Shown piece after piece: positions 26,789-27,206 of a DNA stretch of 38,764 nucleotides (positions within the stretch are counted from its first letter, which is position 1; each line of letters starts with the position of its first letter). The position numbers and the translations under genes are program-made. The notes beneath the pieces were generated by a model that saw only the letters and a list, made by a program, of their open reading frames with translations, did no database searches and was not told where the DNA came from. Source of the stretch: a virus (taxonomy: Duplodnaviria > Heunggongvirae > Uroviricota > Caudoviricetes); IMG/VR virus record IMGVR_UViG_2718218171_000001; one strand, given 5' to 3'.

Positions 26789-27057
26789 TGAAAGAGCTTG
26801 AGTTAAAGAAATCGATTATCGCTCATGGTGAGACACTCTCCGTACTGGAGTTTGATGAGCCCACCGGGAAAGATGTCCGCGAGCTGGGGTATCCCTACCA
26901 GATGAATCAGGATGAGTCCGTCAGACTTCTGGCGCATGTGGTGTCGAAATACATTGTGCGGCTGGCGAAAGTGCCGCAAAGCTCTGTCGACCAGATGTCT
27001 CCGGCAGACCTGAATGCAGCGGCGTGGCTTGTGGCTGGTTTTTTCCTCCAGGCCTGA
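26788..27057 (+). CDS. Tail assembly chaperone, short form
   Basis: 89 aa; located between tube and tape measure; ends just after a slippery heptamer. Confidence 0.7.
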   Translation: MKELELKKSIIAHGETLSVLEFDEPTGKDVRELGYPYQMNQDESVRLLAHVVSKYIVRLAKVPQSSVDQMSPADLNAAAWLVAGFFLQA

Positions 27058-27206
27058 CGGCTGAATACCTCACTGATCGCTTCTTTGACTGCGCCAGCTA
27101 CTGGCGCATTAATCCCTTCGAATTGCTGAATATGCCGATCAGTGAAATTCCCTTGCTGGTCAGTCAGGCAAACAGGATAGAGCAGGAGAAACGCACACAT
27201 GGCTGA
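26788..27206 (+). CDS. Tail assembly chaperone, long form made by programmed -1 frameshift at T_TTT_TTC (27039-27045)
   Basis: Zero-frame codons GGT TTT TTC; the -1 frame is open from the slip site to 27206 (FFPPGLTAEYLTDRFFDCASYW...) and ends overlapping the tape measure start. Confidence 0.5.

What the first reader, a model, noticed from the sequence alone, without database searches (positions are those of the whole stretch)
27039..27206. Programmed -1 ribosomal frameshift (T_TTT_TTC) in the tail assembly chaperone gene
The short chaperone ORF ends 12 nt after a canonical slippery heptamer and the -1 frame is open for another 54 codons up to the tape measure start. This reproduces the conserved G/GT-type frameshift of tailed phages and yields a roughly 144-aa long form.
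Basis: partly seen in the sequence, partly recalled or inferred. Interest (0 to 1): 0.45.

Follow-up and report, generated by a model that had tools for sequence, protein, structure and literature searches.

The report
Tail chaperone gene programmed -1 frameshift
A prophage tail-assembly chaperone gene has a conserved slippery T_TTT_TTC site that should let some ribosomes slip back one base and make a longer 139-residue protein; this trick is well known in tailed phages, but public records of this phage group do not annotate it.

Summary
The window is an SfV/SfI/SfII-like prophage with a Mu-like contractile tail. Between the tube gene (26432-26788) and the tape-measure gene (27199-29031) lies an 89-codon chaperone ORF (26788-27057, Pfam PF10109). 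T_TTT_TTC sits at 27039-27045 in the correct phase. The -1 frame stays open to a TGA at 27204-27206, which overlaps the tape-measure ATG by 8 nt. The long form is 139 aa (86 + 53), not about 144.

Comparative evidence is strong. In-phase T_TTT_TTC, T_TTT_TTT or T_TTT_TTG occurs at the same codons in 50 of 51 related loci, down to 28% protein identity and including genomes of 62-68% GC. All of them keep a 45-63 aa -1 extension with invariant residues and third-position substitution bias. Many lack any start codon for it.

Phage P2 E/E+E' is a proven case. It has the same domain, the same slip position (GGT TTT TTG) and the same 8-nt overlap.

No RNA stimulator was found, so efficiency is unknown.

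Verdict: an ordinary member of the G/GT (P2 E/E+E') type frameshift, correctly called. Its only interest is that it is unannotated in SfV, PGAP and other records.

The parts
26432..26788 (+). Tail tube gene (118 aa), immediately upstream. Its stop overlaps the chaperone start.
   Evidence: PF10618 Tail_tube E=2.4e-33; phrog_185 tail tube protein.
26788..27057 (+). Short tail assembly chaperone ORF, 0 frame, 89 aa. It is the analogue of P2 gpE and lambda gpG.
   Evidence: PF10109 Phage_TAC_7, 49.8 bits against a cut-off of 25, covering residues 5-86. phrog_166 'tail protein'. Annotated as 'phage tail assembly protein' in RefSeq.
27039..27045 (+). Slippery heptamer T_TTT_TTC. The 0-frame codons are GG[T TTT TTC], and the -1 frame reads TTT TTT.
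   Evidence: Phase checked. The T6 run is invariant in 28 non-redundant relatives and is the only T6 on that strand in the 62-68% GC loci.
27045..27206 (+). The -1 frame extension: 53 codons (PPGLTAEYLTDRFFDCASYWRINPFELLNMPISEIPLLVSQANRIEQEKRTHG) plus TGA.
   Evidence: phrog_32181 E=4e-40. Differences from the window by codon position: 3/1/23 for L013 and 9/5/26 for L004. Invariant residues are listed in alignment A1.
26788..27206 (+). Coding span of the predicted 139-aa frameshift fusion: residues 1-86 from the 0 frame and 87-139 from the -1 frame, with base 27045 read twice.
   Evidence: tblastn of the fusion matches in two pieces covering at least 80% of it in 23 of 27 phage records.
27184..27188 (+). 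AGGAG Shine-Dalgarno-like motif, separated from the tape-measure ATG (27199) by 10 nt and lying inside the -1 extension.
   Evidence: Read from the sequence. This is an inference; it was not tested.
27199..29031 (+). Tail tape measure gene (610 aa). Its ATG overlaps the stop of the long form by 8 nt (ATGGCTGA).
   Evidence: PF10145 PhageMin_Tail E=1e-25; tape-measure PHROGs.
27090..27108 (+). An 8-bp hairpin (TGCGCCAG-CTA-CTGGCGCA) 45 nt downstream of the heptamer. Its status is uncertain and it is probably not a stimulator.
   Evidence: the sequence is conserved in the SfV-like group, shows no covariation, and is absent from the SfIV-like group. It encodes the conserved motif CASYWRI.

Best explanation
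This is a programmed -1 ribosomal frameshift of the phage tail-assembly-chaperone (lambda G/GT, P2 E/E+E') type.

Most ribosomes translating the chaperone ORF read GGU UUU UUC CUC CAG GCC UGA and release an 89-aa protein. A minority slip back one base when tRNA-Phe occupies the P site (UUU) and the A site (UUC). Both tRNAs re-pair perfectly with UUU UUU in the -1 frame. Translation then continues with CCU and runs for 53 further codons, ending at a UGA that overlaps the tape-measure start. The product is a 139-aa protein that shares its first 86 residues with the short form.

By analogy with lambda gpG/gpGT, the shared N-terminal domain would coat the tape measure protein, and the extension would recruit the tube protein so that the tail polymerises around the tape measure. 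Neither form would end up in the virion.

Shown here: the anatomy, the phase, the conservation of the site, and translation-type selection on the extension. Inferred: that slippage is ribosomal, how efficient it is, and the roles of the two proteins.
For: - Phase and open frame.
- Gene order sheath, tube, chaperone, tape measure, and PF10109 membership.
- Site conservation: the heptamer T_TTT_TTY sits at the same GFF/RFF/NFF/SFF codons in every one of 9 phage or E. coli loci and 38 genome loci that include Derxia, Methylococcales and uncultured proteobacteria. It is also present, as T_TTT_TTC or T_TTT_TTG, in Burkholderia, Pseudomonas and Stutzerimonas phages.
- Synonymous-site evidence: T6 is invariant in 28 non-redundant loci, including the synonymous third base of the preceding codon and of the first Phe codon. 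This holds even where TTC and non-GGT codons dominate.
- The fusion proteins align end to end with no gap at the junction, and 9 positions are invariant within the extension.
- Substitutions in the extension fall mostly on -1-frame third positions: 376/234/767 summed over pairs, and 3/1/23 for window against L013. The other two frames carry 2-7 stops.
- In 12 of 29 loci the -1 frame has no ATG, GTG or TTG from its upstream stop to 30 codons past the heptamer, and no start candidate has a Shine-Dalgarno motif.
- P2 E/E+E' is annotated with a -1 shift and yields 91 and 142 aa products. It has GGT TTT TTG at the same PF10109 profile position (78/79) and the same 8-nt overlap with gene T.
- Literature: U_UU.Y is the second most shift-prone A-site tetramer in E. 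coli (PMC4066793), and H_HH.U_UU.Y heptamers are among the most efficient there (same paper). The G/GT mechanism and its conservation are reviewed in PMC5009743.
Against: - No protein or reporter data exist for this element.
- No stimulatory element was detected. The 60 nt after the heptamer fold no better than shuffles (z=+0.15). RNAalifold finds no covarying structure in either subgroup. No SD-like motif is visible upstream.
- The bare U_UUU_UUC motif gave only 0.12% shifting in an E. coli reporter (PMC4066793 supplement), so the yield could be very low.
- One relative, Paraburkholderia phage IPK (an UNVERIFIED record), lacks the T6 run although it keeps the extension.
- The extension does not match Pfam PF06528, the P2 E' family.
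Confidence: 0.9

Rival explanations
1. Transcriptional slippage. RNA polymerase adds one extra U while copying the T6 run, and a fraction of mRNAs then encode the 139-aa protein in a single frame. The protein would be identical to the ribosomal-frameshift product.
For: The site is a homopolymer run (T6 here, T7 in the SfIV/ST64B/phiP27 group). Protein sequence alone cannot separate the two routes.
Against: Efficient slippage by bacterial RNA polymerase is documented for runs of 9 A or T, matching the 9-10 bp RNA-DNA hybrid, and is undetectable at T5C5 without special context (PMC5009743). The run here is 6-7 nt. What is conserved is the in-phase X_XXY_YYZ arrangement with Z = C/T/G, which fits tRNA re-pairing rather than run length. 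The homologous P2 site is recorded as a translational frameshift.
Confidence: 0.05
2. Two separate genes. The -1 ORF (GTG at 27024 to 27206, 60 aa) is translated from its own start, as annotated in Escherichia phage vB_EcoM-689R6 and implied by phrog_32181.
For: A GTG exists at 27024. One public record annotates the ORF as a hypothetical protein. A few 53-70 aa ORFs of this family are called in metagenomes.
Against: No SD-like motif precedes the GTG. The start candidate 15 nt upstream of the heptamer is variable (GTG, ATG or TTG) or absent. In 12 of 29 non-redundant loci there is no start codon at all before the conserved part of the extension, and in one locus a stop codon abuts the heptamer. 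Conservation of the extension begins right at the heptamer.
Confidence: 0.03
3. A broken gene or a chance ORF. Either a once-continuous chaperone gene carries a 1-nt deletion in a homopolymer (a pseudogene or a sequencing error), or the -1 ORF is accidental and the gap is non-coding.
For: Homopolymer runs are prone to indels. Database 'long forms' P0001-P0006 are singletons with scattered indels.
Against: The same two-frame arrangement is present in all 51 relatives examined, across several bacterial orders, and in 1085 of 5426 complete E. coli genomes that hold the region. No clean in-frame fusion was found among 5.8 billion clustered proteins or 1.84 billion cluster representatives. Third-position bias shows the -1 frame is translated. 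The minus-strand ORF 26907-27230 would place the variable sites at its first codon positions (my own arithmetic on the coordinates).
Confidence: 0.02

Closest known systems
Phage P2 gpE / gpE+E' (-1 frameshift at T_TTT_TTG; Christie et al. 2002, cited through PMC3091744)
   Same: - Same Pfam domain, PF10109, ending at the slip site (profile position 78/79 in both).
- Same codons at the site (GGT TTT TTN...VGF[L/F]).
- Similar product sizes: 91/142 aa in P2 and 89/139 aa here.
- Same gene order (sheath, tube, E, T).
- Same 8-nt overlap of the long-form stop with the tape-measure start.
- Weak end-to-end profile similarity (hhalign E=0.0032 over 118 columns), including an FHWPPSEL / YWRINPFEL motif.
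   Different: - Z is C here and G in P2.
- The extension does not hit PF06528 (Phage_P2_GpE). It belongs to phrog_32181 instead.
- The 0-frame tail after the site is 3 codons here and 6 in P2.
- The rest of the tail and baseplate is Mu-like (DNA_circ_N, GpP domains), not P2-like.
Phage lambda gpG / gpGT (-1 frameshift at G_GGA_AAG; Levin 1993; Xu, Hendrix & Duda 2004, 2013, 2014, as summarised in PMC5009743)
   Same: - Same genomic position, between the major tail gene and the tape-measure gene.
- Same logic: a short abundant form and a rare C-terminally extended form from one start codon.
- The functional model is borrowed from this system: the G part binds the tape measure and the T part binds the tube protein.
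   Different: - No detectable sequence similarity.
- A different slippery heptamer and different tRNAs (Phe/Phe here, Gly/Lys in lambda).
- Lambda has a non-contractile tail and this prophage has a contractile one.
Phage Mu gp41 (tail assembly chaperone, reported -2 frameshift)
   Same: The neighbouring genes are Mu-like: sheath similar to Mu gpL, tube similar to Mu gpM, a DNA circulation protein and baseplate gpP. Mu gp41 has a weak PF10109 match.
   Different: Mu gp41 is 144 aa and matches PF23746, which the window protein does not. Mu is reported to use a -2 shift (PMC2628397; PMC5009743). Here the +1/-2 frame closes after 16 codons and the -1 frame carries the conserved extension.
E. coli dnaX and IS3/IS911 -1 frameshift signals
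   Same: They use the X_XXY_YYZ tandem-slippage logic in the same host. U_UUU_UUC is itself used by some IS elements (PMC4066793).
   Different: Those signals depend on an upstream SD-like element and/or a downstream hairpin or pseudoknot. None is supported here, and there is no Rfam match.

Membership tests
Tail-assembly-chaperone programmed frameshift (lambda G/GT type; Xu, Hendrix & Duda 2004) | The gene pair lies between the major tail (tube) gene and the tape-measure gene. | tested here: met
   Tube gene 26432-26788, chaperone 26788-27057, tape-measure gene 27199-29031.
Tail-assembly-chaperone programmed frameshift (lambda G/GT type; Xu, Hendrix & Duda 2004) | [quoted passage not shown] | tested here: met
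   T_TTT_TTC at 27039-27045 in phase. The -1 frame is open from 26916 to 27206.
Tail-assembly-chaperone programmed frameshift (lambda G/GT type; Xu, Hendrix & Duda 2004) | The downstream ORF lacks its own translation start. | tested here: met
   No SD-like motif before any candidate start. 12 of 29 relatives have no start codon at all upstream of the conserved part of the extension.
Tail-assembly-chaperone programmed frameshift (lambda G/GT type; Xu, Hendrix & Duda 2004) | The shift site and the two-frame arrangement are conserved among diverged relatives. | tested here: met
   50 of 51 related loci carry the site, and T6 is invariant in 28 non-redundant loci. The exception is phage IPK.
Tail-assembly-chaperone programmed frameshift (lambda G/GT type; Xu, Hendrix & Duda 2004) | Both the short and the long protein are made from one start at a set ratio, both are needed for tail assembly, and both are absent from virions. 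| not testable with these tools
   This needs a reporter assay or western blot, mass spectrometry and genetics.
Pfam PF10109 Phage_TAC_7 (P2 gpE, Mu gp41, gp14) | HMM score above the gathering threshold. | tested here: met
   49.8 bits against a cut-off of 25, E=3.7e-13, residues 5-86.
P2 E' extension (Pfam PF06528 Phage_P2_GpE) | The HMM matches the frameshift-encoded C-terminal part. | tested here: not met
   No PF06528 hit at E<=10 for the 53- or 62-aa extension. P2 E+E' scores 76 bits on this model.
P2 E' extension (Pfam PF06528 Phage_P2_GpE) | Remote homology of the whole long form to P2 E+E'. | tested here: inconclusive
   hhalign of A1 against P2 E+E': E=0.0032, probability 9.9%, 118 aligned columns across the junction. 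Pairwise BLASTP E=0.028.
Mu gp41-type chaperone with -2 frameshift | PF23746 Gp41_Mu domain, with the extension in the -2/+1 frame. | tested here: not met
   Only PF10109 matched. The +1 frame is open for only 16 codons.
Stimulated bacterial -1 PRF signals (dnaX, IS3/IS911) | A conserved hairpin or pseudoknot 5-9 nt downstream and/or an SD-like element 6-17 nt upstream. | tested here: not met
   z=+0.15 for the first 60 nt. No covarying pairs. No SD-like motif in the upstream context. No Rfam family matched. Pseudoknots were not searched explicitly.

The most novel reading that the evidence does not exclude
The shift site works at a biologically useful level without any canonical RNA stimulator. 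In that case a non-canonical enhancer must act on U_UUU_UUY in this family. Candidates are the conserved nascent ...AGFF peptide, the conserved hairpin 45 nt downstream (27090-27108), long-range pairing, or a phage or host factor. The reasoning is that the bare motif gives only about 0.1-0.3% shifting in E. coli reporters, whereas P2-type sites are reported to shift at several per cent.
Probability: 0.12. Interest if true: 0.5.

Novelty: new member of a known kind. Interest (0 to 1): 0.2.

Why it matters
The value is mainly in annotation. The region occurs in about a fifth of complete E. coli genomes (1085 of 5426) and in the Shigella serotype-converting phages SfV, SfI and SfII. The seven annotated records I examined for the group stop at the 89-aa form. 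They either leave about 141 nt blank or call the -1 ORF a separate hypothetical protein. No clean long form exists among the clustered public proteins searched.

Recognising the 139-aa product completes the tail-assembly gene set of this phage group. It also gives phrog_32181 ('unknown function') a role as the frameshift-encoded chaperone extension.

The family is also a clean natural test set for asking why a weak bare heptamer suffices, or what boosts it: the T6 run is kept from 40% to 68% GC, and no stimulator is conserved. As biology it is expected and does not change current understanding.

Tried and rejected
- **Downstream stimulatory RNA.** I folded single sequences of 60, 90 and 150 nt and ran RNAalifold on 14 SfV-like loci and 11 SfIV-like loci. 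The only recurrent element is an 8-bp hairpin 45 nt downstream, which shows no covariation and is missing from the other subgroup. A 5-bp pairing between UUCCU at the slip site and the tape-measure SD is too weak, and both arms are constrained anyway. I rejected both as demonstrated stimulators.
- **Rfam and tRNA scans of the window.** Nothing was found.
- **Independent initiation of the -1 ORF.** Rejected.
- **Minus-strand ORF 26907-27230.** Rejected, because the variable sites would fall on its first codon positions.
- **Pfam and NCBIfam for the extension.** No family matched.
- **PDB by sequence.** There is no solved relative; only chance hits at E of about 1.
- **Search of 1.84 billion cluster representatives with the extension.** It returned 10 hits. 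Three are repeat-protein artefacts (P0123-P0125), and the rest are short -1-frame ORF calls or the error-laden long form P0001.
- **Literature.** Xu et al. 2004, Christie et al. 2002 and the SfV genome paper are not held, so I could not check whether SfV was already listed there. Full-text searches found no paper that notes this frameshift in SfV-like phages.

Full report
**Observation.**
The ORF at 26788-27057 encodes 89 aa and ends ...GCT GGT TTT TTC CTC CAG GCC TGA. TTTTTTC at 27039-27045 is therefore in the X_XXY_YYZ phase needed for tandem -1 slippage, and the 0-frame stop ends 12 nt after it.

Reading 27045 twice gives CCT CCA GGC ... and 53 further codons, up to TGA at 27204-27206. The next gene starts at ATG 27199, so the long form's stop overlaps that start by 8 nt (ATGGCTGA). 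The fusion is 139 aa (86 + 53).

The +1 frame closes after 16 codons.

The anatomy alone is only mildly improbable:
- TTTTTTY occurs 31 times in the window against about 21 expected.
- In-phase heptamers occur about once per 330 codons.
- 3.4% of in-frame positions in the late genes are followed by at least 55 open -1 codons.

**Context.**
The window is an SfV/SfI/SfII-like prophage, 98.5-99.5% identical to those phages over 26432-27400. The same stretch is present in 1085 of 5426 complete E. coli genomes.

The local genes are:
- tail sheath, 24936-26432 (Phage_sheath domains)
- tail tube, 26432-26788 (PF10618)
- the 89-aa ORF (PF10109 Phage_TAC_7, 49.8 bits against a cut-off of 25)
- tape measure, 27199-29031 (PF10145)
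- a Mu-type DNA circulation protein and baseplate gpP

The finding therefore sits exactly where tail-assembly-chaperone frameshifts are found.

**Comparative test.**
I examined three sets of relatives:
- 9 phage or E. coli loci: SfV, vB_EcoM-689R6, an E. coli chromosome, Edwardsiella EPP-1, Pantoea AH07, SfIV, ST64B, phiP27 and Yersinia YeP1.
- 38 loci from a scan of 185,579 species genomes: Enterobacterales, insect symbionts, Derxia, a Methylococcales MAG and uncultured proteobacteria.
- 4 more distant phages.

In 50 of these 51 loci an in-phase T_TTT_TTC, T_TTT_TTT or T_TTT_TTG sits at the same ...(G/R/N/S)FF codons. It is followed by a -1 ORF of 45-63 aa that ends at or a few bases past the tape-measure start.

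Across 28 non-redundant loci the six T's are invariant while the flanking nucleotides diverge freely. This includes two synonymous positions: the third base of the preceding codon is always T, and the first Phe codon is always TTT. In the loci with 62-68% GC this is the only T6 run on that strand, even though those loci prefer TTC and rarely use GGT.

The seven fusion proteins that I aligned (28-76% identity to the window's) align end to end without a gap at the junction. Nine positions are invariant inside the extension: L95, A103, W106, N109, P110, A128, R130, I131 and E134.

Within the SfV-like subgroup, substitutions in the part of the extension that overlaps no other gene fall mainly on -1-frame third positions. 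The counts by codon position are 3/1/23 for window against L013, 9/5/26 against EPP-1, and 376/234/767 summed over pairs. The other two frames carry 2-7 stops. The stretch is therefore translated in the -1 frame.

**Rivals.**
- *Independent initiation.* The GTG at 27024 has no Shine-Dalgarno motif. The equivalent position in relatives is GTG, ATG, TTG or nothing. In 12 of 29 loci the -1 frame has no start codon from its upstream stop to 30 codons beyond the heptamer. The conserved N-terminal half of the extension cannot be made that way.
- *Pseudogene or sequencing error.* The two-frame layout is universal in the family. The only 'long' database proteins are singletons with scattered indels, and no natural in-frame fusion turned up among 1.84 billion cluster representatives.
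- *Minus-strand ORF 26907-27230.* The variable sites would be its first codon positions.
- *Transcriptional slippage.* This route would give the same protein, and sequence alone cannot exclude it. However, efficient bacterial RNA polymerase slippage is described for runs of about 9 (PMC5009743), the run here is 6-7, and what is conserved is a phased heptamer.

**Mechanism and efficiency.**
UUU and UUC are both Phe codons, so after a -1 slip both the P-site and the A-site tRNA can re-pair with UUU. In my recollection (not checked here) E. coli reads both with a single tRNA-Phe, which would make that re-pairing cognate.

In E. coli, U_UU.Y is the second most shift-prone A-site tetramer (PMC4066793), and H_HH.U_UU.Y heptamers are among the most efficient (same paper). 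The measured values for U_UUU_UUC were 0.12% with no stimulator, 0.89% with the IS911 stimulator and 7.6% with the IS3 pseudoknot. For U_UUU_UUU they were 0.33%, 0.45% and 10.2%, and for P2's U_UUU_UUG 0.12%, 0.25% and 0.77% (supplement).

I found no stimulator:
- The 60 nt after the heptamer fold like shuffled sequence (z=+0.15).
- Consensus folding of 14 SfV-like and 11 SfIV-like loci shows no covarying helix.
- There is no SD-like element upstream.
- There is no Rfam match.

One hairpin at 27090-27108 is sequence-conserved within the SfV-like subgroup. It lies 45 nt downstream, shows no covariation, encodes the conserved CASYWRI motif and is absent from the other subgroup.

So the yield of the long form is unknown. 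It could be a fraction of a per cent, or something unseen could raise it. The review literature gives about 1:30 for lambda GT:G and 2-3-fold more for P2-like phages (PMC5009743).

**Comparison with known systems.**
The closest proven case is P2 E/E+E' (NC_001895, annotated with a -1 shift). The two share:
- the same Pfam domain, ending at the same profile position at the slip site
- the same codons, GGT TTT TTG against GGT TTT TTC
- similar product sizes, 91/142 aa against 89/139 aa
- the same 8-nt overlap with the tape-measure gene
- a weak end-to-end profile match (E=0.0032)

The extension does not match P2's PF06528 and has no Pfam or NCBIfam family. It is phrog_32181, listed as 'unknown function'.

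Mu's chaperone gp41 differs. It carries PF23746 and is reported to use a -2 shift.

The functional model is taken from lambda (PMC5009743) and is inference here. In that model the short form and the N-terminal part of the long form bind the tape measure, the extension recruits the tube protein, and both leave the finished tail.

One observation fits a chaperone-tape-measure partnership: DNA similarity to SfIV, ST64B, phiP27 and YeP1 stops right at the end of the tube gene, so the chaperone and tape-measure genes are exchanged together as a module (also PMC3851460).

**Novelty.**
The kind is textbook. What is missing is the annotation. SfV (RefSeq), PGAP-annotated E. coli, EPP-1, AH07, SfIV, ST64B, phiP27 and YeP1 all stop at the short form and leave 85-141 nt blank. 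One record calls the -1 ORF a separate hypothetical protein.

I could not read Xu et al. 2004 to see whether SfV was already listed there. Full-text searches found no paper that notes the frameshift for this phage group.

I therefore rate it a new, or at least unannotated, member of a known kind, of low interest beyond annotation and the open question of the stimulator.

Noticed in passing
window 958-2301: This stretch is peppered with single and short runs of N (partial masking). ORF calls and GC values there (0.21-0.24) are artefacts.
   Followed up: partly
window 11400-14500 (minus-strand ORFs 11677-12717 and 12721-14511): A low-GC island (33-43% against about 55% for the prophage) carries a C-5 cytosine DNA methylase (PF00145, E=3e-59) next to a 596-aa AAA ATPase (AAA_15/AAA_21, AbiEii-like). 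It looks like an acquired methylase or defence-type cargo module.
   Followed up: partly
window 29060-29696 (ORF 29123-29653): A 176-aa ORF at 39% GC is inserted between the tape-measure gene and the DNA-circulation gene. It has a hydrophobic N-terminus, its own promoter-like site (29060-29087) and a terminator-like hairpin (29671-29696). It matches phrog_5485 (unknown function) and has no Pfam hit. It is a typical moron.
   Followed up: partly
window 36342-38764, minus strand: An acyltransferase-3 family gene (36342-37466, 32-40% GC) lies beside a tyrosine integrase (37607-38764). This layout is expected for an O-antigen-modifying (serotype-converting) module at the prophage end. The window ends exactly at the integrase start codon.
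   Followed up: partly
window ~26825 (tube/chaperone junction): This is a mosaic boundary. DNA similarity to SfIV, ST64B, phiP27 and YeP1 covers the tube gene and stops about 35 nt into the chaperone gene. The chaperone and tape-measure genes are replaced together as a module with less than 50% identity.
   Followed up: partly
window 27090-27108: An 8-bp hairpin (TGCGCCAG-CTA-CTGGCGCA) lies inside the -1 extension. Its sequence is conserved in 11-13 of 14 SfV-like loci, including degenerate third positions, but without covariation, and it is absent from SfIV-like relatives. Its role is unknown.
   Followed up: yes
L051 1044-1094 (Paraburkholderia phage IPK, UNVERIFIED record): This is the only relative without the T6 run (GGC TTC TTC), yet it keeps a conserved -1 extension (..VFDLAHFWNVSP..). 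Only about 12 nt (GAG GGC GCG TAA) are open in both frames, so it would need a different shift site, or the record contains an error.
   Followed up: partly
window 27045-27050 and 27184-27188: An anti-SD-like CCUCC directly follows the heptamer and is complementary to the AGGAG Shine-Dalgarno motif of the tape-measure gene 140 nt downstream. RNAalifold proposed a 5-bp pairing. Both arms are constrained by coding or by the ribosome binding site, so this is probably fortuitous.
   Followed up: partly
proteins P0001-P0006 and P0123-P0125: The database 'long' chaperones are singleton contigs with scattered indels, probably assembly errors. Three large repeat proteins hit the 53-aa extension only through summed chance matches.
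   Followed up: yes
L053 1040-1049 (Pseudomonas phage PG1): A more distant relative uses the P2-type T_TTT_TTG, overlapping C_CCT_TTT, with a 63-aa extension. Z therefore varies (C, T or G) across the wider family while the T6 run stays.
   Followed up: partly
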